A DNA stretch of 36,480 nt from a bacterium (GCA_027017505.1 JALUQR010000049.1:1-36480); one strand, 5' to 3'. Shown: positions 8,371 to 33,315, counted from the first letter of the stretch. Program-made: numbers and translations. The notes: generated from the letters alone by a model not told the origin.

Positions 8371-8973
8371 ATGATAAAGGAAGCCCTTTCTCTTATAAGG
8401 GATGAGCTCAACGCATTTCTTGCAAGGAAGGAGCCCAGGTACAGGGGCAGGCAGACAGCCCTGCTTTCAGACATTGTTGACCAGCAGGGTGAGCTGGTAA
8501 TAACCCGCAACGATGACACCAAGCGGGACAACATAATAATAACCCTTGTCAATGTGGAGGAAGAGACCACGGGCAAGGCACAGCTTCCCTATCTTAAGAA
8601 TCCGGACAATTCTCTGGACATAATAAATCCCGAGATAAAGATAAACCTTTATGTGCTCTTCAGTGCCTTCTCAAACATGGACGAGAAGGAAAGGTATGCC
8701 AACTGTCTGGGGCTTTTATCAAGGGTGGTGGGTTTCTTTCAGCAGAAACCTGTCTTCACCCACAGCAATTCTCCAGGGCTTGACCCGGGCATAGACAGGC
8801 TCATAGCAGAGCTCATCTCCCTTAACCTTGAACAGGAGAACCACCTGTGGGGAGCCCTGGGGGCAAAGCTTCTTCCCCATGTGCTCTACAGGATACGCAT
8901 GCTCACCATAAGAGAGGTGGAGGACGCCCCAACAGCTCCGTTCATAAAGGAGATAAGGGTGGAAAAACTGTAA
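8371..8973 (+). CDS. DUF4255 / Pvc16_N-domain protein (Afp16/Pvc16-like tail terminator or cap of eCIS)
   Basis: 200 aa. N-terminus MIKEALSLIRDELNAFL, then ...LVNVEEE and ...INLYVLFSA...Y...L.LLS.V..FFQ..PVF. This is the DUF4255 pattern that marks eCIS loci. It is the first gene of the co-directional cluster. Confidence 0.8.
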   Translation: MIKEALSLIRDELNAFLARKEPRYRGRQTALLSDIVDQQGELVITRNDDTKRDNIIITLVNVEEETTGKAQLPYLKNPDNSLDIINPEIKINLYVLFSAFSNMDEKERYANCLGLLSRVVGFFQQKPVFTHSNSPGLDPGIDRLIAELISLNLEQENHLWGALGAKLLPHVLYRIRMLTIREVEDAPTAPFIKEIRVEKL

Positions 8974-8983
8974 GAGAAAGGCT

Positions 8984-10027
8984 ATGGGCTATTATTTTGG
9001 CACAATCTTTACCATAGAGTTTCTCCACTCCTATTATAAAAACAGGCTGTGTTCCGGGCTGACACTCAAGCCCACCGAAGAATGCCAGAGGGTTCTTCAG
9101 CAACACAGGATGTTTTTCAAGGAAACCCCCAGAGGGGGACTTGTTGTGGGTGAGCTCAAAAAAGAAGGCGACAGCCTCAAGCCATCTGTGAAGATAAAAG
9201 AGGATACAAGCTTTGTCTTCAGAGTGCTTCTTGACAACCCCTTCTTCTGGAACATAACAGATGTGGACCTTCAGAAGGTCAGGCCCTCAACGGTCTTCCT
9301 GTTTGAAAACACCGATACATCCTCAATTGATGCAAGTGGAACGATTACCATCCACAGGGGAAGGCTTTCAGAGCCCGTAAGGGTGTCTGATAAACTCGTC
9401 AGGTACAGCCTTGAGGGGCTGGATGTGGCAACCCTCTTTGTATACGACAGAAAGGAGCGTGTTGTCTTCGGCACCATAGTGAAGCCAGAGGAAGACGCAC
9501 TCACAGTAGATATGACAGGACATCCCGAAGGACTCTACAGGATAAAGGCCTACAGCAGTTCAGGTGCCATGCTGAAAGATGACAAGGTGTTTGTAACAAG
9601 CTCTGCAACAGAGCCCACACCCTTTGGCTTCGTGGTGGTAAGGTTCACCCCGAGTATACTGAGCGATGACAGGGCTGAATACACATTCAGGGTGGAGTTC
9701 TCCTCAAGGGAGATAAACTGGACATACAGGATAAACCTTAAAAACTCGGGAGGCCTTCATCCCATAGATGTATCCAAACTCAAGATAGTAAGGGCACCCG
9801 TGAGGTTTTCAAAAAGGGTGTCAGGCACAGGGGCAGAAAGGCTCGTGGAATTTACATCCGAAAGCCCCATAGAGCTTAAGGAAGAACCCTACAGGGATAT
9901 AAAACTCGTCGAACAGGAGGGAGACAGAGAAGAGGTTATCATAAAAAACCTGCCCAACCCTGACATACACAGGCTGGAGAAGGACGAAAGGGGGCTTAAG
10001 TCCATAATATATCTAACAATCAAATAA
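8984..10027 (+). CDS. hypothetical protein, eCIS-embedded (function unknown)
   Basis: 347-aa ORF, 10 nt after the DUF4255 gene and 13 nt before the sheath gene. Codon usage matches its neighbours and no competing ORF is present. I recognise no family motif. The sequence is beta-rich (e.g. LYRIKAYSSSGAMLKDDKVFVTS). Confidence 0.7.
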   Translation: MGYYFGTIFTIEFLHSYYKNRLCSGLTLKPTEECQRVLQQHRMFFKETPRGGLVVGELKKEGDSLKPSVKIKEDTSFVFRVLLDNPFFWNITDVDLQKVRPSTVFLFENTDTSSIDASGTITIHRGRLSEPVRVSDKLVRYSLEGLDVATLFVYDRKERVVFGTIVKPEEDALTVDMTGHPEGLYRIKAYSSSGAMLKDDKVFVTSSATEPTPFGFVVVRFTPSILSDDRAEYTFRVEFSSREINWTYRINLKNSGGLHPIDVSKLKIVRAPVRFSKRVSGTGAERLVEFTSESPIELKEEPYRDIKLVEQEGDREEVIIKNLPNPDIHRLEKDERGLKSIIYLTIK

Positions 10028-10040
10028 CAAGGAGGATGTT

Positions 10041-12068
10041 ATGATACCCAAAACCCCTGGCGTTTATATTGAGGAAAAGTCCATATTCCCACCCTCGATA
10101 GCACAGGTGGAAACAGCCATACCTGCCTTCATAGGCTACACGGAAAAGGCAGAAGAGAAGATGCCAAATGACCTCAAACTCAAACCCAAAAAACTCTCCT
10201 CCATGCTTGAGTTCGAAAGATACTTCGGAGGCCCCCCACCGCTCAGTATAGATAGAATCGAGCTTGACAGCAACAACACCTTCCAGAGTGCAACCATAAC
10301 CCCGAAGTTCTACCTCTACCACAGCATGCAGTTGTTCTTTGCAAACGGTGGTGGAGACTGCTACATAGTGTCCGTTGGCCCCTACAGCAGTAGTGGTGTT
10401 TCAAAAACAGAGTTAAGCAAAGGGCTTGAGAAGCTTGAAAAAGAAGACGAGCCAACGCTCATAGTCTTTCCCGATGCGGTGCTCCTGCCAGAGGAGGAGT
10501 TCTATGAACTCCAGAGGGAAGCACTCCAGCAGTGTGGCGAGCTTAAAGACAGATTCGCCATACTGGACCTCAAAGAGGATAACGGTATAAAGGACTTCAA
10601 TGCCTATGTGGACAGATTCAGAGACGGCATCGGCACCAGGTATCTTAAGTACGGAGCTGCGTATGCACCGTTTCTCAAGACCTCCATTAAAAAGGAGATA
10701 AGATACAGGGATATAAAGGGAAAACTCGTGCGCTCCGGGGTGAACATAGATGTAAAATCCCTCGATCCATCTGCCCCCTCAGAGGTAAAGACACTTATAG
10801 ACAGGCTTGACACCTACAGCCAGGATGCTATCATCATAGAGAACGCAAGAAAGAAACTTCTCGATACCACATTGGCAGGCCCACCCTTCGGTGTGCCAGA
10901 GCACTCACGCCAGAACCCATACCAGACACTGGAGTATCTTAAAGAGCAACTTCTCACAACCAACGATTCCGCACACTACAGAACCATAATAAAGTTCCTC
11001 TACGAAATAGTGGTGCTAACTGATATGATCATCTACGGCAACGGAACATACCACGGGGTGGACCTGTCTGACCTGTCCACAGAGTTCAAGAATTCCGCAA
11101 AGAGTTCTCTCTTTTCAGGCCTTGATACCGTGGTAAAAAAGCTCATGGAGTTTGAAAAGGGTGCAAAGGAAGGTACAAACAAGATAACAGACTACGGAGG
11201 CTATCAGTCAAATACCTACAAAACAAAGGTGAGCAACACCGCTGATTATTCCCATGAGTGGAATATGACGAGGGTTTCGGCAAACAGCACTCCCTTTACA
11301 GGTACCACCAACAACGAAAAAAGGCTTAACAGCCTTTCGTACCTTACAGAGCTGTTTGAGGAGATACTCACCCTCTTTAACTCCCTTGTGGATGTGAACG
11401 ACACACTTATGAGGCAGAAGGAGGACTCACTTGTAGAGCAGTTTCCAGTCTACAAGAACCTGGTGGATGCGGTGGCAGGTGAACTCTTTGTGCTTCCGCC
11501 AAGTGGTGCAATAGCAGGCGTGTATGCACAGGTTGACAGGGACAGGGGTGTGTGGAAGGCACCTGCAAATGTGAGCCTCAATGGCGTGTCAGGGCTTACC
11601 TATTACTTCAAACAGAGCGAGACTGACAAGCTCAATGTGGATGTTAACTTCGGAAAGTCCATAAATGCCATAAGGTTCATGACAGGTATGGGCTTTATGG
11701 TGTGGGGTGCAAGAACCCTTGCGGGAAATGACAACGAGTGGCGTTACATAAATGTAAGAAGATTCTTCAACATGGTTGAGGAATCCTGCAAGAAGTCCAC
11801 CATGTGGGCGGTGTTCGAGCCGAATGATGCGAGCACATGGATAAAGGTCAAGACCATGATAGAGAACTTCCTTCTCATCCAGTGGCGTAACGGTGCACTT
11901 CAGGGTGCAAAGCCTGAAGAGGCCTTCTTCGTTAAGGTTGGCCTTGGTGAGACCATGACCACACAGGACATTCTCGAGGGCAGGATGAATGTGGAGATAG
12001 GCATGGCAGTTGTAAGACCCGCAGAGTTCATAATACTCAAGTTCTCACATAAACTGGTGGGAGCATAA
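10041..12068 (+). CDS. contractile tail sheath protein (Afp2-4 / Pvc2-4 equivalent)
   Basis: 675 aa. N-terminus TPGVYIEE.....PSIAQVETAIPAFIGYT, central ...DEPTLIVFPDA, and C-terminal GVWKAPANVSLNGV......N.....GKSINAIR...G.G..VWGARTL are all hallmark phage and eCIS sheath motifs. Confidence 0.93.
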   Translation: MIPKTPGVYIEEKSIFPPSIAQVETAIPAFIGYTEKAEEKMPNDLKLKPKKLSSMLEFERYFGGPPPLSIDRIELDSNNTFQSATITPKFYLYHSMQLFFANGGGDCYIVSVGPYSSSGVSKTELSKGLEKLEKEDEPTLIVFPDAVLLPEEEFYELQREALQQCGELKDRFAILDLKEDNGIKDFNAYVDRFRDGIGTRYLKYGAAYAPFLKTSIKKEIRYRDIKGKLVRSGVNIDVKSLDPSAPSEVKTLIDRLDTYSQDAIIIENARKKLLDTTLAGPPFGVPEHSRQNPYQTLEYLKEQLLTTNDSAHYRTIIKFLYEIVVLTDMIIYGNGTYHGVDLSDLSTEFKNSAKSSLFSGLDTVVKKLMEFEKGAKEGTNKITDYGGYQSNTYKTKVSNTADYSHEWNMTRVSANSTPFTGTTNNEKRLNSLSYLTELFEEILTLFNSLVDVNDTLMRQKEDSLVEQFPVYKNLVDAVAGELFVLPPSGAIAGVYAQVDRDRGVWKAPANVSLNGVSGLTYYFKQSETDKLNVDVNFGKSINAIRFMTGMGFMVWGARTLAGNDNEWRYINVRRFFNMVEESCKKSTMWAVFEPNDASTWIKVKTMIENFLLIQWRNGALQGAKPEEAFFVKVGLGETMTTQDILEGRMNVEIGMAVVRPAEFIILKFSHKLVGA

Positions 12069-12105
12069 AATTACTGAACAATAAAACCAAAAGGAGTGTT
12101 GAAAG

Positions 12106-12537
12106 ATGGCAGAATATCCATTACCGGTTTTTCACTTCAAGGTGGACTGGGGAGGAACAAAGATAGAGTTCTCAGAGGTAAGCGGGCTCAACATAGAGGC
12201 CCAAGTAATAGAGTACCGCGATGGCGCAAGCCCTGAATACACCATGCGCAAGATGCCAGGAATTGTAAAGTACGGCAACATAACCCTTAAAAGGGGCATA
12301 TTCAAAAACGATAACGACTACTACAAGTGGTTCAACACCATAAAGATGAACACCATAGAAAGGCGGGATATAACCATAAGCCTTCTCGATGAGGAGCACA
12401 ACCCCGTGATGGTGTGGAAGGTTAAAAAGGCCTTTCCCGTAAAGATAGAAGGGCCAGGGCTTAAGGCATCGGGCAACGAGGTGGCCATAGAAAGCATGGA
12501 GATTGCCCACGAAGGGCTGACCATAGAGACCACATGA
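12106..12537 (+). CDS. tail tube protein (T4 gp19-like; Afp1/Pvc1 equivalent)
   Basis: 143 aa. PVFHFKVDWGG..I.FSEVSGL..E.QVIEYRDG.......KMPG..KYGNITLKRG is the conserved eCIS/T6SS-like tube signature. Strong AAAAGGAG SD. Confidence 0.9.
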   Translation: MAEYPLPVFHFKVDWGGTKIEFSEVSGLNIEAQVIEYRDGASPEYTMRKMPGIVKYGNITLKRGIFKNDNDYYKWFNTIKMNTIERRDITISLLDEEHNPVMVWKVKKAFPVKIEGPGLKASGNEVAIESMEIAHEGLTIETT

Positions 12538-13010
12538 GCATAAAACCGGTTATCATGGACGAAGAGCTCTACCCACCTGTGGGGTTTCACTTCAAGGTGG
12601 AGTTCAAACTGCCAGGGCTTGAGGCCGAAGAGCGTGAGGCAAGGTTTCAGGAGGTCTCAGGGCTTTCAAAAAGTCTGGGTGTGGAAGAGTACAAAGAGGG
12701 CGGAGAAAACCGCTTCAGCCACAGACTGCCACTGCCTGCAAAGTATTCAAACCTTGTGCTCAAAAGAGGAGTGCTCAGGAACTCAAAGCTCATAAAGTGG
12801 TGCTTCGATGCCATAGATAACTTCGTGTTCAGACCCGTGGAGGTTACAGTGTCACTGCTCAATGAGAAGAGCAAACCCATTGTGGTGTGGAACTTCGTGG
12901 GAGCCTATCCGGTAAAGTGGTCTGTAACAGACCTTAGGGCACAGGAAAACTCCCTCGTTATAGAAAGCCTTGAGCTTGCTTACAAGTACTTTACAAAAAA
13001 GGATGTATAG
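12534..13010 (+). CDS. second tail tube paralog (Afp5/Pvc5 equivalent)
   Basis: 158 aa. PPVGFHFKVEF.........ARFQEVSGL...L.VEEY.EGGENRF.HRLP.P.KYSNLVLKRG has the same fold signature as the preceding gene. The ATGA start/stop overlap at 12534-12537 indicates translational coupling. Confidence 0.9.
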   Translation: MSIKPVIMDEELYPPVGFHFKVEFKLPGLEAEEREARFQEVSGLSKSLGVEEYKEGGENRFSHRLPLPAKYSNLVLKRGVLRNSKLIKWCFDAIDNFVFRPVEVTVSLLNEKSKPIVVWNFVGAYPVKWSVTDLRAQENSLVIESLELAYKYFTKKDV

Positions 13011-13163
13011 ATGCCCATAGAGATAAAAGAAATAGTCATAAGGGCAGAGGTAAAAGAGCTTGAAGAAAAGCCCCCCACAGAGACAGAGGGCAGAATAGAG
13101 GATATAGTGGAAGAATGCGTTGAACAGGTAATGCGCATAATAAGAGAGATGAAGGAGAGGTAG
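13011..13163 (+). CDS. small conserved eCIS protein (DUF5908-like; Afp6/Pvc6 position)
   Basis: Not in the supplied track (50 aa, below its length cutoff). The ATG at 13011 abuts the TAG of the tube gene, and the TAG at 13161-13163 abuts the ATG of the LysM gene. Translation: MPIEIKEIVIRAEVKELEEKPPTETEGRIEDIVEECVEQVMRIIREMKER. The MPIEIKE.VI.. start and the position between tube and LysM genes match the small DUF5908 family as I recall it. Confidence 0.6.
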   Translation: MPIEIKEIVIRAEVKELEEKPPTETEGRIEDIVEECVEQVMRIIREMKER

Positions 13164-13862
13164 ATGGCAGAGGTGGAGAACAAGGGAGAACTTAAAAAAC
13201 TCCTCATAGAGTGCTACAGCGATGAAAAATACACCAAAATGGTGGCAAGCTTTTCTGCTCTCTTTAACCCGAGCAAGTATTCAATAAAGTACGAAATAGA
13301 ATACGGCAAACGAAAACCCCATGGCACAGCCCACAGTGCACCGTCCTTCTCCAACATAAAGCCCCAGCAGTTGAGCCTCGAGTTCCTCATAGATGGAACA
13401 GGTGTAACAACAGGAAAAAAAGAGGATGTGGGAAAGAAGATAAGGGAGTTTCTGCAGAAGGTATACGAGTACGATGGCAACATACACCGCAACAGATACT
13501 TAAGAATAATATGGGGCGAGCTTATTTTCGACTGCATACTCAAGTCTGCCAACATCACATACACACTCTTTGAGCCCTCTGGAAAGCCCCTGAGGGCAAA
13601 GATAAACGCAGAGTTCGAGGGGTTTGTAAATGATGAGCTGAGGGCAAAAAGGGAAAACAAACAATCTCCCGATGTAACCCATGTGCTTACCGTAAAGGGT
13701 GGTCAGAGGCTCGATACCCTTACCCACAGCGTATACAGAACACCTGACTACTACATAGATGTCGCAAGGGTGAACAGGCTTGTCTCATTCAGAAAACTGA
13801 AAGAGGGAGATAGACTTCTCTTTCCACCACTTGCAGACGAGGTGAACAATGACAACCAGTAA
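13164..13862 (+). CDS. LysM-domain tube-initiator / baseplate protein (Afp7/Pvc7 equivalent)
   Basis: 232 aa. The N-terminal tube-like part (F.ALFNPS.YS..Y...Y..............P..LSLEF..DGTG) is followed by a C-terminal LysM-like segment (HVLTVKGGQRLDTLTHSVYRTPDYYIDVARVNRL.SFR.LK.GDRLLFPPL). Confidence 0.8.
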   Translation: MAEVENKGELKKLLIECYSDEKYTKMVASFSALFNPSKYSIKYEIEYGKRKPHGTAHSAPSFSNIKPQQLSLEFLIDGTGVTTGKKEDVGKKIREFLQKVYEYDGNIHRNRYLRIIWGELIFDCILKSANITYTLFEPSGKPLRAKINAEFEGFVNDELRAKRENKQSPDVTHVLTVKGGQRLDTLTHSVYRTPDYYIDVARVNRLVSFRKLKEGDRLLFPPLADEVNNDNQ

Positions 13863-15585
13863 CAGGTCAACAGACCTTCCCACCTTTGCGGTATTCTCCG
13901 AGGATAAGGAGCTTCCAGGCTCATTTAACATAGTGTCCATTGTGGTAAGCAAGGCAACAGGCCGTATACCAAAGGCAAGGATTGTCTTCAAAAGTGGAGA
14001 CCCCTCCGCACAGGACTTCCCCCTATCGAGCAAAAAAGAAGAGCTTCTGCCAGGCAAGAGGATTCGCATAGATGCAGGCTATCACAACGAGAACAGAACC
14101 ATCTTCGAGGGCATAATAGTCAGGCACAGCCTTGAGGTAAAGAGTGCCAGTAACTTCTATGTGGTGGTGGAGTGCAGGGACAGGGCATACCGAATGACCG
14201 TTGGCAGAAAGCACAGATACTTTACCGATACAAAGGACAGCGATGTTATAGAAGAGCTCACAAGCGCTTACAACCTTGAGGCCCAGGTGGAACCCACAGA
14301 TGTTACACACCGCGAGCTCGTACAGTTTAACACCACGGACTGGGACTTCATGCTCTCCAGAGCAGAGGCAAACGGCATGGTGGTTGTGGTGGACGACGGC
14401 AGACTGATTGTCAAAAGACCTGACACATCAAAGGCACCCCAGATGAAGCTTGCCTTTGGAGACCAGATTATAAGTCTTTCTGCGGTAATGGATGCCACAT
14501 ATCAGCAGGCCACACTCAGGTGTTCTGCGTGGAGTCCTTCAGAGCAGACACTGCTTGAGGCAGAGGCACAAACACCACAGCTTGAAGAGCCTGGCAATAT
14601 TGCCTCCACCACACTTTCAGGCACCGTTACAGAAGAAAACATGGAGTACAGACACACAGGAAACATAACCGCAGAGGAACTCAGGGCCTGGGCAGATGCA
14701 AGAAGAACGAGGGCTGTGTTATCGAAGATTCGGGGGGTTGCAAGGTGCAGGGGAACTGCAGGGCTCAGGTGTGCAGACATTGTGGAGCTTTCAGGACTCG
14801 GCGAGAGGTTTAACGGAAAGGTGTTCGTAAACGGCATAAGACACGAGATAGCGGACGGCAGGTGGGAGATGGATGTGGAGTTCGGGCTCTCACCAGAGCC
14901 ATTTATAAACGAGTATGAGGTGAACTCACGCTCCATGCAGGAGCTCCTGCCACATGTGGAGGGCCTGCAGATAGGGGTTGTAACACAGATACAGGATGAC
15001 CCTGACGGTGAGTACAGGGTGCTCGTAAAGATGCCCGTTGTGGACAACCAGGCAGAGGGAACATGGGCAAGGGTGGCAACACTGGATGCAGGCAAAAACA
15101 GGGGTGCCTTTTTCATGCCAGAGATAGGCGATGAGGTGGTACTGGGCTTTCTGAACAATGACCCCAGGGATGCAGTGATACTCGGTATGCTGAACAGCAG
15201 TAACAGGCCAGCCCCGCTTGAGCCAAAGGATGAAAACCCTGAAAAGGGCTTCGTTACACGAGAAGGAATGAAGCTCATATTCAACGATGAGCTTAAGAAC
15301 ATAAAGATAGAGACCCCTGCGGGCAACACACTGCTTCTCAGCGAGGACAAAGGCGCCATACTCATAGAAGACCAGAACGGCAACAGACTACAGATGGACT
15401 CCTCAGGGGTGACCATAGAGAGCAGTGGCAACATGGAGCTTAAGGCAAGGGGCAACATAAAGGTGGAGGCACAGAATATCCAGGGCTCTGCATCTGTGGG
15501 TATGAAACTTGAGGGCGGTACATCTGCAGAGCTGTCATCATCAGGGGCAACAAGGCTTAAGGGCTCTATTGTGAACATAAACTGA
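13849..15585 (+). CDS. VgrG-like spike / baseplate hub (phage gpD + gp5 OB-fold; Afp8/Pvc8 equivalent)
   Basis: 578 aa. Late-control-D-like N-terminal half, then a gp5/VgrG OB-fold (GLQIGVVTQIQDDPDGEYRVLVKMP......GTWARVAT..AG..RG.FF.PEIGDEVVLGFLNNDPRDAVILGMLNS), then a C-terminal beta-helix repeat region. Overlaps the upstream gene by 14 nt. Confidence 0.9.
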   Translation: MTTSNRSTDLPTFAVFSEDKELPGSFNIVSIVVSKATGRIPKARIVFKSGDPSAQDFPLSSKKEELLPGKRIRIDAGYHNENRTIFEGIIVRHSLEVKSASNFYVVVECRDRAYRMTVGRKHRYFTDTKDSDVIEELTSAYNLEAQVEPTDVTHRELVQFNTTDWDFMLSRAEANGMVVVVDDGRLIVKRPDTSKAPQMKLAFGDQIISLSAVMDATYQQATLRCSAWSPSEQTLLEAEAQTPQLEEPGNIASTTLSGTVTEENMEYRHTGNITAEELRAWADARRTRAVLSKIRGVARCRGTAGLRCADIVELSGLGERFNGKVFVNGIRHEIADGRWEMDVEFGLSPEPFINEYEVNSRSMQELLPHVEGLQIGVVTQIQDDPDGEYRVLVKMPVVDNQAEGTWARVATLDAGKNRGAFFMPEIGDEVVLGFLNNDPRDAVILGMLNSSNRPAPLEPKDENPEKGFVTREGMKLIFNDELKNIKIETPAGNTLLLSEDKGAILIEDQNGNRLQMDSSGVTIESSGNMELKARGNIKVEAQNIQGSASVGMKLEGGTSAELSSSGATRLKGSIVNIN

Positions 15586-15613
15586 ACACCACAGAGTAAG
15601 GGAGGTGAAAAGA

Positions 15614-25980: not shown

Positions 25981-25987
25981 TGGTTTC

Positions 25988-27529: not shown

Positions 27530-28839
27530 AGCCGTATTACAGATACAATGCAAGACACCTTATGGCAGAGTTTGCCTGGCTCAAGGAGGTGGTCAGAGCC
27601 CGTTACAGGCTGTACCATGGAAAGGAGACCACCTGCAGGGATGTGCTGGAGATACCACCTCCATCGCTGAACGGTTGCGGTTCACTCTACAGTGAGGTTG
27701 TAAGGGGTTACAGGCTCACGCCAGAGGAAAGGCTTGTGCTTGTTCTTGCCCTTTACCCGCACATACATCCTGCCCTGCTCGATGAATTTTTTAACCCTGG
27801 AGACCGGCCCCAGAGAAGACTTCCACCGATTCCAACTGTGGATACTGCGCTGTTTCTGCTTGCAGGAGATGAGCTTGAAAAGAGGTTCCATTACTATTAC
27901 CTTTTTGAGCCCCACAGCGTTCTCATAAAAGAGGGCATTATAGAGCTTGAGAAGGACCATACCACAGGGACGCTTCTTGACGCAAGGCTTGTTCCCTCTC
28001 AGGAGGTACTCTCGCTGTTTACAACAGGAAGAATCCATCCACCCCAGTACGGTCATGAGTTTCCAGCCCAGAGGATTACCACAGAGCTTGAGTGGAAAGA
28101 CCTGGTTCTTCCACCACAGACGATGGCACAGGTGGAAGAAATAAAGATATGGATTAAACACGGCAGGACACTTCTTTACCAGTGGGGACTTAAAAAGAAG
28201 ATAGCCCCTGGCTACAGGTGTCTCTTCTACGGGCCTCCTGGCACTGGAAAGACACTTACTGCAATGCTCATAGGCAAGGAGACAGGCATAGATGTCTACA
28301 GGATAGACCTCTCTCTTGTGGTCTCAAAGTTCATAGGAGAGACGGAAAAGAACCTCAAAAAGATATTCGATACCGCCCGTGACAGAGACTGGATACTCTT
28401 TTTTGACGAGGCGGATGCCCTCTTTACAAAGAGAACAGAGGTTCAGACATCTCACGACAGGTTCAGCAACCAGGAGATAGCCTATCTGCTCCACCGTGTG
28501 GAGGAACATCCAGGTGTGGTGATACTTGCAACCAACAGGAAGAGCAATCTTGATGAGGCGTTCTTGAGAAGATTCCAGAACATGATAGAGTTTCCCATGC
28601 CAACAAAACAGGAGCGACTCAGGATATGGCAGAACGGGTTTTCAAAGAGCTCGGTGCTCGAGAAGGGGATAGACCTTGAGGAGCTTGCAGAAAGGTACGA
28701 GCTTACAGGCGCATCCATAATGAATGTGGTGAGATACGCCTCGCTCATGGCACTTAACGAGGGGAGCAATGTTATAAGGGCTTCGCATATATTGAAGGGT
28801 ATAGAGAAGGAGTACACAAAAGAAGGGAGAACTATCTGA
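27523..28839 (+). CDS. AAA+ ATPase (Afp15/Pvc15 equivalent, single AAA module)
   Basis: Walker A GPPGTGKT (nt 28231-28254), Walker B ILFFDEADALF, sensor/Arg-finger region ILATNR...LDEAFLRRF. The N-terminal region of about 200 aa belongs to no family I recognise. ATG 27523 overlaps the tape-measure stop (ATGGTAG); the track start is 27496. Confidence 0.9.
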   Translation: MVEPYYRYNARHLMAEFAWLKEVVRARYRLYHGKETTCRDVLEIPPPSLNGCGSLYSEVVRGYRLTPEERLVLVLALYPHIHPALLDEFFNPGDRPQRRLPPIPTVDTALFLLAGDELEKRFHYYYLFEPHSVLIKEGIIELEKDHTTGTLLDARLVPSQEVLSLFTTGRIHPPQYGHEFPAQRITTELEWKDLVLPPQTMAQVEEIKIWIKHGRTLLYQWGLKKKIAPGYRCLFYGPPGTGKTLTAMLIGKETGIDVYRIDLSLVVSKFIGETEKNLKKIFDTARDRDWILFFDEADALFTKRTEVQTSHDRFSNQEIAYLLHRVEEHPGVVILATNRKSNLDEAFLRRFQNMIEFPMPTKQERLRIWQNGFSKSSVLEKGIDLEELAERYELTGASIMNVVRYASLMALNEGSNVIRASHILKGIEKEYTKEGRTI

Positions 28840-31800
28840 TGGGCTTTCTTTCAGGCACAAAGGATTCAAAGACTGGTTCTTCTGCGCAGAACACCACCCC
28901 ATGCCAGCTTCAGACGATACTGAGAACATCCAGAAGGGATGACCCTTCAGAGATAGAGGCAGATAGAATCGCAGAAAGGATAACAGCAAAGACCACAGAG
29001 GAGGAACTCACAGGGCCTGCCCTGAAAGTTGCGGATGAACAACCAGAGGAGCTTAAGCCCAGGGAGAACGAGGAGGAAGAGAGCCTTCAGCGACAGAGCG
29101 AAGAAGATGAGCCAGAAGAGGCAGATGTGGACATGCAGGAAGAGGAAGACGGGATTATTCAGGGAAAGGCTGTATCCACAGAGGGCATAAAGGACCCGCA
29201 GGTAAGAGAGCTTCTCAGGACAGGCAGGGGTGCTGGTAGCCCCATGGAGCCAGGGCTTGCCCGCCAGATGGAGGGCCATTTTGGAAGAAGTTTTTCGGAT
29301 GTGCGCATACATACAGATTCAACCGCGGTAAGGCTCTGCGAGCTCCTTGGTGCAAGGGCATTCACCTACGGGCAGGATATATACTTCAGCGAGGGTGCAT
29401 ACCAGCCCGATACAAGGGAGGGCAGAAAGCTCATCGCACATGAGCTCACCCATGTGGTACAGCAACGAAGGGGTGCAAAGACGATACAGAGACAGTCAGA
29501 ACGCACAAACCAGAAAAAGCCCGTGGATGCAACAAAACTCAGCGAAAGAGATGGAAGACTCGTAAGAGGCACTGACAGAGACAGAATATTCTTCGATAAG
29601 ATAGAGGTGCCAGGGTTCAAGCTGAAGGATTACAGAGAACACCTCTATAAGAGCCGTTACCCGCTTATACATAGCAAGGGCTACAAAAGGGGAAATCCAA
29701 GACAGCGTGATGTATGGCAGAAAAGCGTGAATAAGGAAAAAATAATGAGAAGGATAAGAGAGGTTCTACAGCGTGGATACAGAAGTGATTCCATAAATGA
29801 TAACGAAACCCACCTTGTAAAGGTGCCCGTACGGGGAGAAAGGGCATCCCTATACTATTCTGGAACCATAGCTGAGATTGCAGATAGACTCACCATTCCA
29901 GAATGGGGCGGTATGTCCCTGAGGCCACCTTACAGATTCTTCCATGTGGACCACATCGTTGAGCTTCAGCTTGCAAACTGGAATAACGATAGGTGGGCAA
30001 ATACTCCTGCAAACATGGAGCTTCTTGAGGCAGGTTTCAACATGGCATCTGGCAGTATCATAAAGAACAAGATTAACGAAAAGGTCAGGCATTTTCTCAA
30101 TGTTACGAAGGGGCCTGACGGAAGGTCTCCCTACGGTAGAAGTATAAAGGATATAAAAAAGAACTATGAGCTTGTCTTCAGAAAGGCGGAGCCACTGAGT
30201 GAATACAGGAATGTAGCACGCACCAGATTCTGGAAGAAGGATGAGATAGAAAACGCCAGCCATCTCAGGCCATTGAGACCTGCCCTGCTATCTGAACTTG
30301 GCGGAAACGGATATGTGAGGATATTCCCCTCCGAGACAGGAGGCCTTGGCATGCGTTTCAGGTGGCCAGAGGAGGTTCCATCCCGTTCCAGAGAAAGGGG
30401 ATGGCTTAAAAGCCCCTTCCAGATAAAACAGAAACACTTCAACACAAAGGATGAAGATGTAACCTCTCATGAGTTTGGCCACTTTGTTGTAAATATAGAG
30501 CCCAACCACAGCGTGTTTGAGGGGCTAAGGGGCGGTGACTTCAGAATCCCCATCTTAAGGTTCGGAGGCGCACAGTTTGCAGGCCACATAGAGAAGACAT
30601 CTGTGTTGAGAATGCTTCACAGACTCAAGATAAAGAGAACCAGCCCCATAGCGGTGGATACCTTCCACATTCATGGGAAAAGAGGAATAATACTTCAGGG
30701 CAGAATACTGCCAGAGGTTCCCCTGTTCAGGGATGCGGACATAAGGTTTTCTCTTGAAAACGGGGATTTCACCCTTTCAAAGACATTTACGATAGACGAG
30801 ATAACCCTTCCCCCACCGTTCAGTGTATCCACTGTAACGCTTACTCTTTTTGGAAGCACAAGAAGGGGTATAGGGATTGATGGCAGGATTGAGTTTGCCA
30901 TAAAGGGGCTTGGTGAGGGATACATCGCAGGGGTTGCTACCACCTCGCAGAGTCTGGAGCTTGAGGGCGAATTCAACTTCGATTCCAGGTTGTTTGACCC
31001 TGCAGTGGTAAGTGTTAGTTACAGGAACAGAACACTCACTGCAGAGGGTGAACTCGGCATACCCCAGGGGAAGCTCAGGGGTATAAAGAGTGCAAACATA
31101 AGGGTGCTCTATTCGGAAAGCGAGGGCAGGCTCACAGCAAGTGGCACCGCAGAGCTTAACATACCAGGGGTAAGAAGTGCGATGGTAAATGTGCTCTACA
31201 CAGGGGAGAGCTTCACCGTAGAGGGCACCGCAGAGCTCAAAGATGACATACCTGGCATAAGGGGTGGTAGCGTTACGGTGAGGGTGCAGAAGGAGGGTGA
31301 GGAATCAGGCTACAGGCTCTATGCAAGGGGCGAGGCCATACCCAGCATACCTGGCATAGATGCAAAGCTCGGTGTGGAATACAACGACGGAGCCATTACC
31401 ATACACGGCAGGGTTGGCTACAGAAAGGGCATGCTCTCTGGAGAGGTGGATGTAACCGTATCTAACAGAAGGGTAGATGAAGAGGGCAATCCCACAGATG
31501 AGCTCACAGACAGGCTCACACTCTACGGTGGTGGTGAGCTCACCGTACAGTTTACACGCTGGCTGAAGGGCACCGCAGGGGTCAGGTTCCTGCCCACAGG
31601 CGAGCTTCAGGTCTCTGGCAGGATAGGTATACCCTCCACCGTGGAGGTATTCGGAAGAAAGGCCATACCAGAAAGAGACCTCTTCAGGCTTGGTTTTGAT
31701 ATACCCATATTTGCCATACCGGTCGGGCCAAAGAGTATAGGGCTTGTTGCAACCATAAGGGGAGCCCTGAGGGCATACGCTGGAATAGGGCCTGGAAGGC

Positions 31801-32324
31801 TTGAGGAGCTTGAGCTCAGCGTGGTGTACACCCCAACGAGGGAGGAGGATACAAGGATAAGTGGAAGGGGCAAGTTCATTATACCCGCAGATGCAGGGCT
31901 GAAACTTGCGATAAGTGCAAGTGTGGGAGTTTCAGCGGTGATTGGAGGTGCAGAGGGTGGTTTTGAGATTGCAGGGGGTATAAAACTCTCTGCAAAGGCA
32001 GACGCATCGGTCAATGTGAACTGGACACCCTCCACAGGGATTGAACTTAACGCAAGGCTCTCTGCAGGAGTGGAGCCAAAGTTCACATTCGATATAGAAG
32101 GTTTCGTAAGGGCATGGGCATTAGGCCTGGAGAAAAGAAAAGGCTGGAACCTCGTAAGCTACGAATACGGCTCGAATATGCGGTTCGGAGTATACCTGCC
32201 AATAAGATACAGGGAAGGAGAACCCTTCGATATATCCTTTGAGGATATAAGGTTTGAAAGACCACAGATAAGTGAGGGCTTTCTTAAAGGGCTGATTCGT
32301 GATATAAAGAACAAAAACAGCTGA
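28839..32324 (+). CDS. DUF4157 (zincin-like HExxH) domain protein with a long uncharacterised C-terminal extension; candidate eCIS cargo or effector
   Basis: 1161 aa. The start ATG shares one base with the ATPase stop (TGATG). Residues about 133-212, GSPMEPGLARQMEGHFGRSFSDVRIHTDSTAVRLCELLGARAFTYGQDIYFSEGAYQPDTREGRKLIAHELTHVVQQ, are a textbook DUF4157 domain. The HELTH motif lies at nt 29439-29453. An upstream DPSEIEADRIAERI motif and an acidic low-complexity stretch are also typical. Confidence 0.85.
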   Translation: MGFLSGTKDSKTGSSAQNTTPCQLQTILRTSRRDDPSEIEADRIAERITAKTTEEELTGPALKVADEQPEELKPRENEEEESLQRQSEEDEPEEADVDMQEEEDGIIQGKAVSTEGIKDPQVRELLRTGRGAGSPMEPGLARQMEGHFGRSFSDVRIHTDSTAVRLCELLGARAFTYGQDIYFSEGAYQPDTREGRKLIAHELTHVVQQRRGAKTIQRQSERTNQKKPVDATKLSERDGRLVRGTDRDRIFFDKIEVPGFKLKDYREHLYKSRYPLIHSKGYKRGNPRQRDVWQKSVNKEKIMRRIREVLQRGYRSDSINDNETHLVKVPVRGERASLYYSGTIAEIADRLTIPEWGGMSLRPPYRFFHVDHIVELQLANWNNDRWANTPANMELLEAGFNMASGSIIKNKINEKVRHFLNVTKGPDGRSPYGRSIKDIKKNYELVFRKAEPLSEYRNVARTRFWKKDEIENASHLRPLRPALLSELGGNGYVRIFPSETGGLGMRFRWPEEVPSRSRERGWLKSPFQIKQKHFNTKDEDVTSHEFGHFVVNIEPNHSVFEGLRGGDFRIPILRFGGAQFAGHIEKTSVLRMLHRLKIKRTSPIAVDTFHIHGKRGIILQGRILPEVPLFRDADIRFSLENGDFTLSKTFTIDEITLPPPFSVSTVTLTLFGSTRRGIGIDGRIEFAIKGLGEGYIAGVATTSQSLELEGEFNFDSRLFDPAVVSVSYRNRTLTAEGELGIPQGKLRGIKSANIRVLYSESEGRLTASGTAELNIPGVRSAMVNVLYTGESFTVEGTAELKDDIPGIRGGSVTVRVQKEGEESGYRLYARGEAIPSIPGIDAKLGVEYNDGAITIHGRVGYRKGMLSGEVDVTVSNRRVDEEGNPTDELTDRLTLYGGGELTVQFTRWLKGTAGVRFLPTGELQVSGRIGIPSTVEVFGRKAIPERDLFRLGFDIPIFAIPVGPKSIGLVATIRGALRAYAGIGPGRLEELELSVVYTPTREEDTRISGRGKFIIPADAGLKLAISASVGVSAVIGGAEGGFEIAGGIKLSAKADASVNVNWTPSTGIELNARLSAGVEPKFTFDIEGFVRAWALGLEKRKGWNLVSYEYGSNMRFGVYLPIRYREGEPFDISFEDIRFERPQISEGFLKGLIRDIKNKNS

Positions 32325-32340
32325 CCATGGAAACAGTGTC

Positions 32341-33315
32341 ATGAAGAAAGACCCAAGGGAGATAAACAACAGGGGTGTGGAGCTCTTCCTGAAGGGAGAT
32401 ATTACCGGAGCAAGAAGGCTATACGAAGAGGCCCTCAGGCTTGATGAACGCAATGTGAGTGCCCTTAACAACCTGGGCTATACATACACCATGGAGGGTA
32501 ACTATGATAGGGCAATAGAGTGTTTTCACAGGGCCCTTCAGATAGAGCCCCGCAATGCCACTGCCCTGCTCAACATGGGGGTTACCCTTGCCAACAAGGG
32601 AGAGCTTGAAAAGGGCCTGGGGTATCTGCAAAGAAGCGTTGAGGTCGCCCCTGACAGTGAACCTGCCTGGCAGAGCATGGCAGGGCTGTTCCAGCTTCTC
32701 TCGCTCTATCCCGAGGCTGAAAAGGCGTGGCGTGAGGCTGTAAGGTGTAACCCAGAAAACAGGGATAACCTCTACAACCTGGGCGTGGTGCTTGCGGTAC
32801 AGAAAAAGTACGATGAGGCCATCGTTACATTCAACGAGCTTCTATCGCAGAATCCAGACGATACAGAAAGCCTCTGCCAGCTCGGTATAATCCACATGAT
32901 GCGTCATGACCTGGGGCTTGCAACCGAGACCTTCAGAAGGGTGCTTGCCGTAAAACCCGAGCATGAGTCCGCAAGATATCACCTTGCACTCACACTCGCA
33001 TCAAAGGGAGATGTGGAGGGCGCAAAAAAAGAGCTCGAAAGGCTTCTCCTTATAAACCCTGCCAACACAAAGGCAGAGATAGACCTTGCGGTCTTTGAGA
33101 TGGGCCTGGGCAATAAAGAGACCGCACTTGAACACCTCGAAGAGGTGCTCAAAAGAGAGCCAGAAAACACAAAGGCACTCTTCTACAAGGCAATAGTCCT
33201 CTATAACAGCGGAAAGAAAAAGAAGGCAGAAAGGATTCTCAAGGAGCTCAGCACAGGAAAGGACGAATACTCCTTAAAGGCAAGGGAACTTCTGGAAAAA
33301 GAGCTTAAGGACTGA
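32341..33315 (+). CDS. tetratricopeptide-repeat (TPR) protein
   Basis: 324 aa made of about eight consecutive 34-residue units with the A..Y..AL..DP.N..AL.NLG....G.Y..AI pattern (e.g. ALNNLGYTYTMEGNYDRAIECFHRALQIEPRNATALLNMGV). It starts 16 nt after the DUF4157 gene on the same strand. Confidence 0.85.
   Translation: MKKDPREINNRGVELFLKGDITGARRLYEEALRLDERNVSALNNLGYTYTMEGNYDRAIECFHRALQIEPRNATALLNMGVTLANKGELEKGLGYLQRSVEVAPDSEPAWQSMAGLFQLLSLYPEAEKAWREAVRCNPENRDNLYNLGVVLAVQKKYDEAIVTFNELLSQNPDDTESLCQLGIIHMMRHDLGLATETFRRVLAVKPEHESARYHLALTLASKGDVEGAKKELERLLLINPANTKAEIDLAVFEMGLGNKETALEHLEEVLKREPENTKALFYKAIVLYNSGKKKKAERILKELSTGKDEYSLKARELLEKELKD

What the first reader, a model, noticed from the sequence alone, without database searches (positions are those of the whole stretch)
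8371..33315. Complete extracellular contractile injection system (eCIS / PLTS, Afp-PVC-like) operon between housekeeping genes
Seen directly: 17 co-directional ORFs span about 25 kb with almost no intergenic space. Start/stop overlaps or abutments occur at 12534/12537, 13010/13011, 13163/13164, 13849/13862, 16297/16300, 23128/23131, 27523/27529 and 28839.

The content is a full contractile-tail and baseplate set:
- DUF4255 terminator
- one sheath and two tube paralogs
- small DUF5908-like ORF
- LysM initiator, VgrG-like spike, PAAR, gp25
- a J-like 1215-aa wedge and two more proteins of about 1000 aa
- tape measure

Three further markers separate eCIS from prophage tails, tailocins and T6SS: the DUF4255 gene, an AAA+ ATPase and a DUF4157 protein. 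There is no capsid, portal, terminase, holin/lysin or integrase gene. There is also no TssJLM membrane complex or ClpV.

The architecture differs from the Afp/PVC prototypes. The terminator gene comes first, there is a single sheath instead of three paralogs, and the ATPase has a single AAA module. At least four large ORFs have no assignable function. The thermophile-like coding bias suggests an ecological setting where no eCIS target or function is known (inference).
Basis: partly seen in the sequence, partly recalled or inferred. Interest (0 to 1): 0.85.

Follow-up and report, generated by a model that had tools for sequence, protein, structure and literature searches.

The report
AlgoCIS-type contractile injection system operon
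This is a complete, well-kept gene cluster for a phage-tail-like protein injection machine of an already described type (closest to AlgoCIS and the Anabaena system), found in an uncultured deltaproteobacterium whose relatives carry hydrothermal-vent sample names; it is a new example, not a new kind.

Summary
Seventeen co-directional ORFs (8371-33315, + strand) lie between a radical-SAM gene and uvrA, with no internal gap above 37 nt.

The "unassignable" ORFs all have structurally characterised homologues in AlgoCIS (Algoriphagus) and the Anabaena thylakoid-anchored CIS:
- the 347-aa ORF is the cap adaptor (Cis16B/Alg16B);
- the 1215-aa and 1054-aa ORFs are Cis11 and Cis12;
- the 950-aa ORF is the Cis19/Alg19 fibre or crown protein;
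- the 1161-aa DUF4157 protein matches the Cgo2 cargo type (disordered acidic N-terminus, HExxH domain, about 940-aa conserved C-terminus);
- the TPR gene behind it is a conserved partner, also found in Echinicola.

The traits called unusual (cap gene first, one long sheath, long Afp11) fit Chen et al.'s subtype Ib, where AlgoCIS is placed. All genes tested against an orthologous cluster are under purifying selection.

No head, lysis, integrase or T6SS membrane-complex genes occur in the window or in 10-kb flanks of syntenic relatives. "Extracellular" is inferred, not shown.

Side findings: an orphan cap-adaptor gene kept with the CIS promoter in CIS-less relatives, and a candidate HNH-like motif in the cargo.

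Verdict: new member of a known kind; moderate-to-low interest.

The parts
8222..8312 (+). Conserved promoter and leader block: TTGACA at 8230-8235, a 17-nt spacer ending in TGG, TAAAAA at 8253-8258, then a conserved TTAACCATATTCACCAAT box at 8274
   Evidence: Alignment A4. The block is conserved in six loci. These include the relocated cluster L011, where homology begins just upstream of the -35, and the CIS-less orphan loci L005 and L006. The consensus scanner did not list it because the -10 ends in A rather than T. Its function as a promoter is inferred.
8371..8973 (+). Cap / tube terminator (Cis16A/Alg16A type, 200 aa, Pvc16_N only)
   Evidence: Pfam Pvc16_N 2.7e-30. PDB matches: All3327 1.8e-26 and AlgoCIS cap 3.7e-14. 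dN/dS is 0.08 against L002.
8984..10027 (+). Cap adaptor (Cis16B/Alg16B family, 347 aa); no Pfam family
   Evidence: Exhaustive profile search: 939 representatives at E<=1e-3. The family profile A2 hits three PDB cap adaptors: All3326 at 2.7e-36, SalCis16b at 4.4e-25 and the AlgoCIS cap adaptor at 2.9e-23. Foldseek with a low-confidence model puts 7b5i_AB first (1.2e-10) and 7adz_1A third. The gene sits between cap and sheath.
10041..12068 (+). Single long sheath (675 aa)
   Evidence: Matches AlgoCIS Alg2 (692 aa) over its full length, 2.1e-137, and All3325 at 2.7e-129. Pyocin and T4 sheaths score only about 1e-8.
12106..12537 (+). Inner tube protein (143 aa)
   Evidence: Pfam Phage_T4_gp19 3.8e-50. 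96% identical to the L002 orthologue, dN/dS 0.05.
12534..13010 (+). Second tube paralogue (158 aa, Afp5-like)
   Evidence: Pfam Phage_T4_gp19 5.2e-43.
13011..13163 (+). DUF5908 protein (50 aa), the Afp6/Alg6 'plug' type
   Evidence: Pfam DUF5908 3.9e-12. Alg6 is the Afp6 orthologue that forms a trimeric plug in the spike cavity (PMC8894135). Equating DUF5908 with Afp6/Alg6 rests on gene position and size, not on a direct comparison.
13164..13862 (+). Tube initiator with a C-terminal LysM-like domain (Cis7/Alg7, 232 aa)
   Evidence: Pfam CIS_tube 3.2e-52. Aligns end to end with Alg7 (1.9e-51) and All3321 (5.6e-51). Pfam LysM itself did not hit.
13849..15585 (+). VgrG-like spike (578 aa, single contiguous gp27-gp5 ORF)
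   Evidence: Phage_base_V 8e-23 and Phage_GPD 5.5e-9. TIGR01646 3.4e-77.
15605..15895 (+). PAAR spike tip (96 aa; the gene caller used a start giving 93 aa)
   Evidence: Pfam PAAR_motif 7.6e-22. Gene call in L001.
15899..16300 (+). gp25-like sheath initiator (133 aa)
   Evidence: Pfam GPW_gp25 1.4e-25.
16297..19944 (+). Long Afp11/Cis11 wedge protein (1215 aa)
   Evidence: PDB: All3317 (1231 aa) 4.4e-140 with near-collinear coordinates, and Alg11 6.7e-135. Afp11 itself is only 607 aa. Presence of the spike-cage domain is inferred from length and collinearity.
19967..23131 (+). Afp12/Cis12 wedge protein (1054 aa)
   Evidence: PDB: All3315 7.5e-146 and Alg12 3e-121.
23128..25980 (+). Cis19/Alg19-family fibre or crown protein (950 aa): conserved N-terminal part, divergent C-terminal part
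   Evidence: PDB: All3314 5e-50 and the AlgoCIS 1443-aa PKD protein 3.7e-41. 27% identity over residues 3-544 to the Echinicola orthologue, with an unrelated C-terminus. It is the most divergent gene against L008: 42% aa identity, dN/dS 0.34.
25988..27529 (+). Tape measure protein (513 aa)
   Evidence: Pfam CIS_TMP 1.6e-97, full length.
27496..28839 (+). AAA+ ATPase (Afp15/Alg15 type; 447 aa, or 438 aa from the ATG at 27523)
   Evidence: AAA 3.7e-30, WHD 1.9e-9 and AAA_lid_3. Start alternatives are shown.
28839..32324 (+). Cgo2-type DUF4157 cargo candidate (1161 aa). Residues 1-134 are acidic and low in complexity; the DUF4157 HExxH domain spans 135-212; a conserved C-terminal region spans about 220-1161, with an HNH-like motif (D371-H372...N392...N401) and about 500 aa of predicted beta-meander.
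   Evidence: eCIS_core 1.7e-31. The N-terminus has net charge -17. The C-terminal region is 31-63% identical over about 940 aa to DUF4157 proteins of about 1200 aa, including one from Echinicola soli. The Echinicola gene lies in an AlgoCIS-like cluster. AF2 mean pLDDT is 82.
32341..33315 (+). TPR protein (324 aa), last gene of the cassette and a conserved partner of the long DUF4157 gene
   Evidence: TPR families score down to 4e-50. 76% identical, dN/dS 0.09, in L008. Absent from the orphan loci. 31% collinear identity (E 1e-38) to the TPR gene directly downstream of the Echinicola long DUF4157 gene.

Best explanation
The region is a complete, chromosomally encoded contractile injection system operon. 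It is of the type represented by AlgoCIS and the Anabaena tCIS, which corresponds to subtype Ib of Chen et al. It is probably transcribed from one conserved sigma-70-like promoter upstream of the cap gene.

Inferred mechanism, taken from the solved homologues:
1. A baseplate assembles around the spike and the DUF5908 plug. The spike is VgrG plus PAAR. The baseplate comprises Cis7 (LysM-like), gp25, long Cis11, Cis12 and the Cis19 fibre or crown.
2. The tape measure protein sets the length.
3. The tube and a single long sheath polymerise.
4. They are terminated by a two-protein cap: the 200-aa cap plus the 347-aa cap adaptor.
5. The AAA+ ATPase loads the 1161-aa DUF4157 protein into the tube lumen through its disordered acidic N-terminus.
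6. The conserved TPR protein probably assists that cargo.
7. After release from the producer, the variable C-terminus of the Cis19-like protein binds a target, the sheath contracts, and the spike and cargo are expelled.

What is shown: gene content, homology to structurally characterised parts, purifying selection, and absence of phage-head, lysis or T6SS membrane genes in the window.

What is inferred: single transcript, particle assembly, extracellular release, cargo identity, cargo activity (possibly an HNH-type nuclease and/or a membrane-active beta-sheet domain), and the target.
For: All eight subunit types that Chen et al. found in more than 85% of loci are present (Afp1/5, 2/3/4, 7, 8, 9, 11, 15, 16), plus Afp6, 10, 12 and 14 and DUF4157.

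The best PDB matches for cap, cap adaptor, sheath, Cis7, Cis11, Cis12 and Cis19 are always AlgoCIS and Anabaena tCIS chains. E-values run from 1e-26 to 1e-146.

Cap, cap adaptor and sheath are consecutive genes here, as All3327, All3326 and All3325 are in Anabaena.

The cluster is tightly packed, with no gap above 37 nt.

All 14 CIS genes compared with the orthologous cluster (L002/L008) have dN/dS of 0.05-0.34. Their dS is similar to that of the flanking housekeeping genes, so the cluster has been resident and maintained.

The cargo architecture matches that described for AlgoCIS Cgo1/Cgo2: a disordered N-terminal domain needed for loading, then DUF4157, then a C-terminal domain. Alg15 mediates loading (bioRxiv 10.64898/2026.05.27.728243; PMC8894135).

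In the Echinicola cluster the gene order is Alg12-like, Alg19-like PKD protein, TMP, short DUF4157, long DUF4157, TPR, muramidase, AAA. This places the long DUF4157 homologue where Cgo2 sits in AlgoCIS.

None of the 17 proteins has a hydrophobic segment with a 19-residue Kyte-Doolittle mean of 1.6 or more.
Against: There are no expression or particle data, and the source is a MAG contig.

The window has no lysis or release cassette, and it ends at the contig ends.

The closest baseplate matches are marginally better to the membrane-anchored Anabaena system than to AlgoCIS.

I had no Cgo2 sequence, so orthology to Cgo2 rests on architecture, size and synteny through Echinicola.

The HNH-like assignment is weak. 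Pfam GmrSD_C and HNH hits have E of 0.003 or weaker, and none occurs in the window protein itself.

No formal sheath or Afp11 phylogeny was built.
Confidence: 0.8

Rival explanations
1. The same machine does not act as a free extracellular particle. It is an intracellular or membrane-attached CIS. Known examples are the thylakoid-anchored CIS of Anabaena, T6SSiv of Amoebophilus and the cytoplasmic CIS of Streptomyces. Such a system fires from within the producer, or takes part in stress-induced cell death.
For: Cap, Cis11, Cis12 and Cis19 score slightly better against the Anabaena tCIS than against AlgoCIS. Subtype Ib contains eCIS, T6SSiv and tCIS among close relatives (PMC8894135; PMC8894136). 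There is no holin, endolysin or other release gene in the window. The Echinicola cluster does carry a muramidase gene.
Against: Anabaena anchoring depends on Cis13, which has a transmembrane helix, and on a Cis12 extension (PMC8894136). The window has no gene between the Cis11 and Cis12 genes. No protein in the operon has a transmembrane-grade hydrophobic segment. From general knowledge, deltaproteobacteria have no thylakoids. The sheath matches AlgoCIS Alg2 over its full length with the best score.
Confidence: 0.17
2. The cluster is a contractile prophage tail remnant or an R-type tailocin. Such a particle kills by membrane puncture and carries no cargo.
For: The parts are phage-tail-like (sheath, gp19 tube, gp25, J-like, VgrG). 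There is no capsid, so a tailocin would look superficially similar.
Against: The cluster has a DUF4255 cap, CIS-specific TMP and tube-initiator families, an AAA+ ATPase and DUF4157. Pyocin and T4 sheaths score only about 1e-8, against 1e-137 for AlgoCIS. No lysis cassette, integrase or tRNA is present. Syntenic relatives have housekeeping genes within 10 kb on both sides.
Confidence: 0.01
3. The cluster is a decaying, non-functional remnant. Related genomes have lost the cluster from this slot.
For: Relatives L005/L012 and L006 have lost everything but one gene at this position.
Against: All 17 ORFs in the window are intact and tightly coupled. Every gene compared has dN/dS of 0.05-0.34 against the L002/L008 orthologues, over a dS of about 0.5-1.6.
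Confidence: 0.02

Closest known systems
AlgoCIS of Algoriphagus machipongonensis (PDB 7adz, 7aeb, 9wt0; Xu et al. 2022, PMC8894135)
   Same: - The cap is short (about 200 aa) and has a separate cap adaptor.
- There is a single long sheath, 675 aa against 692 aa, aligned over its full length.
- A DUF5908 ORF occupies the position of the Alg6 plug.
- The tube initiator has a LysM-like C-terminus.
- Afp11 is long and Alg12 is present.
- An Alg19-family fibre replaces an Afp13 fibre.
- The cargo has the architecture disordered N-terminus, DUF4157, long C-terminal domain.
- The ATPase has one AAA module.
   Different: - The ATPase gene lies between the TMP and cargo genes, not after the cargo genes (judged from the Echinicola cluster).
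- There is only one DUF4157 gene, with no short Cgo1-like gene and no muramidase.
- The fibre has 950 aa against 1443 aa, with no PKD domains and an unrelated C-terminus.
- The host is a deltaproteobacterial MAG, not a Bacteroidota isolate.
Thylakoid-anchored CIS of Anabaena sp. PCC 7120 (all3327-all3313; PDB 7b5h, 7b5i; Weiss et al. 2022, PMC8894136)
   Same: This system gives the best PDB scores for cap (All3327), cap-adaptor family (All3326), Cis11 (All3317, 1231 aa against 1215 aa), Cis12 (All3315) and Cis19 (All3314). Cap, cap adaptor and sheath are consecutive genes in both.
   Different: - The window has no homologue of Cis13, the tail-fibre-like protein with the transmembrane helix that anchors the tCIS.
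- Cis12 is shorter (1054 aa against 1335 aa).
- Cis19 is shorter (950 aa against 1476 aa).
- The sheath is long, like AlgoCIS (675 aa against 484 aa for All3325).
Afp of Serratia entomophila and PVC of Photorhabdus (subtype Ia; PDB 6rao, 6j0n)
   Same: The core parts list is shared, from Afp1 to Afp16, with CIS_TMP and an AAA+ ATPase.
   Different: - Afp and PVC have three sheath paralogues, where the window has one.
- Their cap has about 295 aa and two domains, and no adaptor.
- Their Afp11 is short (607-728 aa).
- They have an Afp13 adenovirus-like fibre.
- The PVC effectors Pdp1 and Pnf lack DUF4157.
- Their PDB scores are far weaker, for example Afp11 at 1e-35 and Afp12 at 1e-19.
Salmonella enterica subsp. 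salamae CIS (PDB 9r9h, 9r9n, 9rce; PMC13266070)
   Same: It is another subtype Ib system with a separate cap adaptor (SalCis16b, 4.4e-25 to the family profile). Its sheath scores 7e-108 and its Cis7 scores 2e-35.
   Different: It is more distant than AlgoCIS or tCIS for every component compared.

Membership tests
eCIS superfamily (Chen et al. 2019; Geller et al. 2021) | Presence of the eight conserved subunit types: Afp1/5, Afp2/3/4, Afp7, Afp8, Afp9, Afp11, Afp15 and Afp16 | tested here: met
   All eight were recovered by Pfam and by PDB sequence searches. The criterion is from PMC6899500.
eCIS superfamily (Chen et al. 2019; Geller et al. 2021) | Afp11, Afp14 (TMP) and Afp16 (DUF4255) present, and no T6SS membrane complex or ClpV | tested here: met
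   CIS_TMP scores 1.6e-97, Pvc16_N 2.7e-30 and Cis11 4e-140. No TssJLM-like or ClpV-like hit appears among window ORFs or in the gene tables of 10-kb flanks in relatives. The rest of the genome was not seen.
eCIS superfamily (Chen et al. 2019; Geller et al. 2021) | No capsid, portal, terminase, integrase or lysis cassette belonging to the element | tested here: met
   Window flanks and syntenic flanks are housekeeping genes. No tRNA was found. This covers only the contig plus relatives' flanks.
eCIS superfamily (Chen et al. 2019; Geller et al. 2021) | Particles are released and act extracellularly | not testable with these tools
   This needs EM or cryo-ET and functional assays. Sequence data show only that no transmembrane anchor is present.
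Subtype Ib (AlgoCIS, MAC, T6SSiv, SalCIS) | A single, notably long afp11; a single contiguous afp8; Afp12 and Afp14 present | tested here: met
   One 1215-aa Afp11 homologue, one 578-aa VgrG ORF, a 1054-aa Cis12 and a TMP. The criteria are from PMC6899500.
Subtype Ib (AlgoCIS, MAC, T6SSiv, SalCIS) | Phylogenetic placement of the sheath or Afp11 within the Ib clade | not tested
   No tree was built. The support is only a ranking of PDB E-values: AlgoCIS, tCIS and SalCIS score far better than Afp, PVC and the remaining CIS sheaths listed.
Cap-adaptor family (Alg16B/Cis16B) | Sequence or fold homology to solved cap adaptors, with the gene between the short cap gene and the sheath gene | tested here: met
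   The family profile's top three PDB hits are all cap adaptors, at 2.7e-36, 4.4e-25 and 2.9e-23. Foldseek ranks them first and third. The gene position matches. With only four close sequences the profile hit was marginal, E 0.0025.
Anabaena-type thylakoid/membrane-anchored CIS (tCIS) | A Cis13 tail-fibre-like protein with a C-terminal transmembrane helix, plus an extended Cis12 | tested here: not met
   There is no ORF between the Cis11 and Cis12 genes, and no transmembrane-grade hydrophobic window in any of the 17 proteins. Cis12 has 1054 aa against 1335 aa.
AlgoCIS Cgo2-type cargo | A disordered N-terminal loading sequence, then DUF4157, then a long C-terminal domain, encoded next to the TMP and ATPase genes | tested here: met
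   The N-terminal 134 aa carry net charge -17 and are rich in E, T, S and P. DUF4157 spans residues 135-212. The 940-aa C-terminal domain is conserved. The architecture is described. Disorder was judged from composition only.
AlgoCIS Cgo2-type cargo | Direct sequence orthology to Cgo2 (ALPR1_12690) and physical presence in the tube lumen | not tested
The link is indirect, through the Echinicola soli homologue (44% identity) at the syntenic position.
HNH / His-Me finger nucleases | A beta-beta-alpha-metal fold with the catalytic D/H-H...N...N/H motif | tested here: inconclusive
   D371, H372, N392 and N401 are invariant in 38 homologues. The AF2 secondary structure around the motif is strand, strand, helix. 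Pfam GmrSD_C hits 8 of 15 members weakly (best 0.0027) and HNH hits 2 of 15, but neither hits the window protein. Foldseek returned no nuclease hit.

The most novel reading that the evidence does not exclude
Two linked readings remain open.

(a) The roughly 1200-aa DUF4157 protein and its TPR partner may be a conserved functional module of AlgoCIS-type systems, not an exchangeable toxin.
- The pair is kept from Bacteroidota to this deltaproteobacterial MAG.
- The protein combines an HNH-like nuclease domain with a C-terminal beta-sheet of about 500 aa.
- That sheet could insert into the target membrane as a translocation pore.

(b) The cap-adaptor protein may have a role independent of the particle, or may act in trans.
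- Its gene and the CIS promoter are kept under purifying selection in relatives that lost every other CIS gene at this locus.
Probability: 0.2. Interest if true: 0.55.

Novelty: new member of a known kind. Interest (0 to 1): 0.3.

Why it matters
The locus adds a complete, selectively maintained subtype Ib contractile injection system from an uncultured deltaproteobacterial lineage. Two things suggest a hot setting: the amino-acid composition, and a relative's isolate name that I read as hydrothermal-vent. No CIS target or function is known in such a setting.

If the proteins are thermostable, the cluster could serve as a robust chassis for the engineered protein-delivery work now being done with PVC and AlgoCIS.

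The comparative data give three testable leads of wider use:
- a Pfam-less cap-adaptor family with at least 939 representatives at 50% clustering;
- a long-DUF4157 plus TPR gene pair conserved across phyla;
- a natural pair of CIS-plus and CIS-minus populations in one sample, for asking what the system does in situ.

It does not change the picture of what these systems are.

Tried and rejected
- **Word-indexed search with the 347-aa ORF.** It found only four clusters, which wrongly suggested a near-orphan protein. The exhaustive profile search showed a large family.
- **AF2 of the 347-aa ORF with four sequences.** The model was poor, pLDDT 54. I used it only as a weak check.
- **The four-sequence profile against the PDB.** The hit was marginal, E 0.0025. 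It needed the 74-sequence profile.
- **The search for related loci with the 74-sequence alignment.** The single genome-contig scan was then spent on the four-sequence alignment, which returned three loci.
- **Cargo C-terminal domain.** Neither the single sequence nor the profile hit the PDB. Foldseek against the PDB and BFVD gave only weak hits: beta-meander resemblances to LptD, VDAC and ApoB, and unnamed phage or tail-fibre entries. TM-scores were at most 0.28 and no nuclease appeared.
- **Pfam on sub-regions of Cis7, Cis11, Cis12 and Cis19.** Nothing useful came back.
- **NCBIfam.** It has no models for most components.
- **Literature search for the MAG and sample accessions.** It returned only unrelated papers, so the sample's origin is not documented here.
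- **The 185-aa TPR ORF next to uvrA in L006/L008 as a remnant of the operon's TPR gene.** I rejected this. It is a separate resident gene, present alongside the 323-aa TPR gene in L008.
- **The SpoU dN/dS values for the window.** These are invalid because I used the wrong frame. I ignored them.

Full report
**1. What is in the sequence**

The + strand from 8371 to 33315 carries 17 consecutive ORFs. Gaps are 0-37 nt and overlaps 1-34 nt. The only ambiguity is the ATPase start: ATG at 27496 or at 27523, both in frame.

The window is an entire 36,480-bp contig held under an NCBI source. A near-identical 33-kb ENA scaffold exists. Upstream lie a UbiK-like gene, two U32 peptidase genes, ssb, an M48 peptidase, an FAD protein, a SpoU methyltransferase and a radical-SAM gene. 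Downstream lies uvrA. No tRNA and no Rfam family is present.

**2. Family assignments**

Pfam recovers, above the curated cut-offs:
- Pvc16_N/DUF4255
- Phage_sheath_1C
- two gp19 tubes
- DUF5908
- CIS_tube
- Phage_GPD plus base_V
- PAAR
- gp25
- CIS_TMP (1.6e-97)
- AAA plus WHD plus lid
- eCIS_core/DUF4157
- TPR

Baseplate_J is just under its cut-off (20.5 against 21.1 bits), and LysM is not hit. Searches against PDB sequences settle both:
- The 1215-aa protein matches Anabaena Cis11 (All3317) at 4e-140 and AlgoCIS Alg11 at 7e-135.
- The 232-aa protein aligns end to end with Alg7, deposited as 'LysM domain-containing protein'.

**3. The 'unknown' ORFs**

*The 1054-aa ORF* is Cis12/Alg12 (8e-146 and 3e-121).

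*The 950-aa ORF* is a member of the Cis19/Alg19 family (All3314 at 5e-50; AlgoCIS 1443-aa PKD protein at 4e-41). Cis19 forms the trimeric 'crown' in Anabaena, and Alg19 is the downward-pointing tail fibre in AlgoCIS.
- Only its first 550 or so residues, plus one central block, are shared with the Echinicola orthologue.
- It is the most divergent gene between the window and its closest orthologous cluster, at 42% aa identity and dN/dS 0.34.
- That pattern is what a receptor-binding part would show. This is an inference.

*The 347-aa ORF* between cap and sheath has no Pfam or NCBIfam hit, and the word-indexed search found only four relatives.
- An exhaustive profile search found 939 representatives at E<=1e-3.
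- A 74-sequence profile of that family hits three PDB entries far above everything else, and all three are cap adaptors: Anabaena Cis16B at 2.7e-36, Salmonella SalCis16b at 4.4e-25 and the AlgoCIS cap adaptor at 2.9e-23.
- Foldseek, even with a poor model, ranks Cis16B first (1.2e-10) and the AlgoCIS adaptor third.
- The cap protein itself is the short 200-aa type that works with an adaptor (PMC8894135).

*The 1161-aa DUF4157 protein* has three parts:
- an acidic, low-complexity N-terminus (134 aa, net charge -17);
- the HExxH domain at residues 135-212;
- a C-terminal region of about 940 aa that is 31-63% identical to DUF4157 proteins of about 1200 aa from other phyla.

[quoted passage not shown] There the disordered N-terminus is the loading signal and Alg15 mediates loading.

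In Echinicola soli the homologue sits in an AlgoCIS-like cluster in the position of Cgo2. It is followed directly by a TPR gene that is collinearly 31% identical to the window's TPR gene, E 1e-38. The TPR gene is therefore part of the system.

**4. Classification**

All eight near-universal eCIS subunit types are present. The locus also shows the features Chen et al. give for subtype Ib: a single, notably long afp11, a single contiguous afp8, and Afp12 and Afp14 present. AlgoCIS is placed in Ib.

Cap, cap adaptor and sheath are likewise consecutive genes in Anabaena. The sheath family is very large, with more than 7,700 hits at E<=1e-50. Named members come from Fischerella thermalis (55% identity), Syntrophorhabdaceae, Aliikangiella, Echinicola and Chitinophagaceae. 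I did not build a tree.

**5. Is it functional and resident?**

Three related contigs carry the same cluster in the same radical-SAM to uvrA slot:
- L002/L008, scaffold_152;
- L009, WFXZ01000009, which shares the identical uvrA product and gene layout with L008;
- L010, DRQE01000140, 'Deltaproteobacteria bacterium HyVt-575'.

Fourteen CIS genes compared with L002/L008 have dN/dS of 0.05-0.34. Their dS is in the range of the flanking radical-SAM and uvrA genes. This argues for long residence and purifying selection. dS is near saturation, so the ratios are approximate.

Ten-kb flanks in these relatives hold ubiquinone, thiamine, lgt, dap and signalling genes only.

**6. Mode of action**

The nearest solved relatives use different modes. 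AlgoCIS is released. The Anabaena system is anchored in thylakoids through the transmembrane helix of Cis13 and a Cis12 extension.

The window has no Cis13 gene, and none of the 17 proteins has a transmembrane-grade hydrophobic segment. That favours a free particle. The absence of any release gene leaves an intracellular mode open. I put it at about 0.17.

**7. Cargo activity**

AF2 on 38 sequences gave mean pLDDT 82. The first 400 or so residues of the C-terminal region are alpha/beta. They contain an invariant VDHIVELQ...N...ELL...N..SG block, with D371, H372, N392 and N401 in full-length numbering. The predicted secondary structure around the block is strand, strand, helix.

Evidence for an HNH-type fold:
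- Eight of 15 family members give weak Pfam GmrSD_C hits and two give HNH hits. None comes from the window protein.

I regard an HNH-type fold as plausible but unproven.

The last 500 or so residues are predicted as one long antiparallel beta-meander. It has only weak Foldseek resemblance to LptD, VDAC and ApoB.

**8. Setting**

The IVYWREL fraction is 0.446 for the operon and 0.442 for the flanking genes. By the Zeldovich relation this extrapolates to about 80 degrees C. That is a crude estimate from few proteins.

Record names place the relatives in 'Deltaproteobacteria bacterium' MAGs, one with the isolate name HyVt-575. That this series comes from hydrothermal vents is from memory. I could not document the samples from the literature. 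eCIS loci have already been noted in marine sulfate-reducing Desulfobacterota and in ANME archaea (PMC10553843).

**9. Side finding**

In two relatives the slot holds only the conserved promoter and leader block followed directly by an intact cap-adaptor homologue, 57-58% identical. These are L005/L012, from the same sample as the window's ENA twin, and L006.
- Between the two orphans dN/dS is 0.35, with Nd 50.5 and Sd 40.5. The binomial p against neutrality is 3.8e-6.
- The MAG that holds L012 also holds a contig (L011) with promoter, cap, adaptor and the start of the sheath gene beside IS256-like transposase fragments, in a copA/putA context.
- The L011 adaptor is 91% identical to L002's (dS 0.22), whereas housekeeping genes of the two lineages differ by dS of about 0.85.
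- So either the cluster was re-acquired elsewhere by transfer, or the bin mixes strains.

Noticed in passing
L005 9718-11041 (= L012, WGFM01000017.1) and L006 9726-11032 (JBPLYD010000050.1); corresponds to window 8129-10027: CIS-less relatives keep only the CIS promoter and leader block plus an intact cap-adaptor homologue in the radical-SAM to uvrA slot. The homologue is 57-58% identical at the amino-acid level. The cap gene and the roughly 23 kb downstream are gone. Between the two orphans dN/dS is 0.35, p(neutral) 3.8e-6, so the orphan is under selection.
   Followed up: partly
L011 8300-11149 (WGFM01000001.1, same MAG as L012): A second copy of promoter, cap, cap adaptor and sheath start lies beside IS256-like transposase and methyltransferase fragments, in a putA, phosphorylase, cupredoxin and copA context. 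Homology to the window begins just upstream of the -35 box. Its adaptor is 91% identical to L002's (dS 0.22), much closer than the housekeeping genes (dS about 0.85). That suggests transfer or relocation of the whole cassette, or mixed binning.
   Followed up: partly
window 8222-8312: An upstream block of about 90 bp is conserved in all six related loci. It contains TTGACA, a 17-nt spacer, TAAAAA with a TG extension, and a TTAACCATATTCACCAAT box. It may be a promoter plus an operator for an unknown regulator.
   Followed up: partly
window 28839-33315 and L013 10001-14428 (Echinicola soli CP041253.1): The long DUF4157 gene is followed directly by a TPR gene in both a deltaproteobacterial MAG and a Bacteroidota genome. 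The TPR proteins are 31% identical and collinear, E 1e-38. No role for this TPR protein came up in the passages I read.
   Followed up: partly
window 29946-30053 (cargo residues 370-405): An invariant VDHIVELQLANW...NMELL...N..SG block resembles the D-H...N...N motif of HNH/His-Me finger nucleases, for example the Cas9 HNH DVDHIVPQS...N...N. The profile support is weak.
   Followed up: partly
window 430-2755 (- strand); L002 1-3728; L005 1-4343: A UbiK-like (BMFP) gene and two U32 peptidase genes lie next to UbiB and UbiE genes in the relatives. This arrangement resembles the O2-independent ubiquinone hydroxylation genes ubiU/ubiV, which would be unusual for a deltaproteobacterium (a reading from memory).
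   Followed up: no
L008 8847-9341: Two short AhpC-TSA fragments (62 and 79 aa) lie between the operon's TPR gene and a resident 186-aa TPR gene upstream of uvrA. They look like a peroxiredoxin pseudogene. The window lacks both the fragments and the 186-aa gene.
   Followed up: no
L002 11699-11798 and 19055-19154: Runs of 100 N (scaffolding gaps) interrupt the sheath and Afp11 genes of the closest orthologous cluster. The truncated gene calls there are assembly artefacts, not pseudogenes.
   Followed up: yes
window 6437-7003 (- strand): A conserved ORF (175-188 aa) with no Pfam hit lies between the SpoU and radical-SAM genes. It is present in all syntenic relatives.
   Followed up: no
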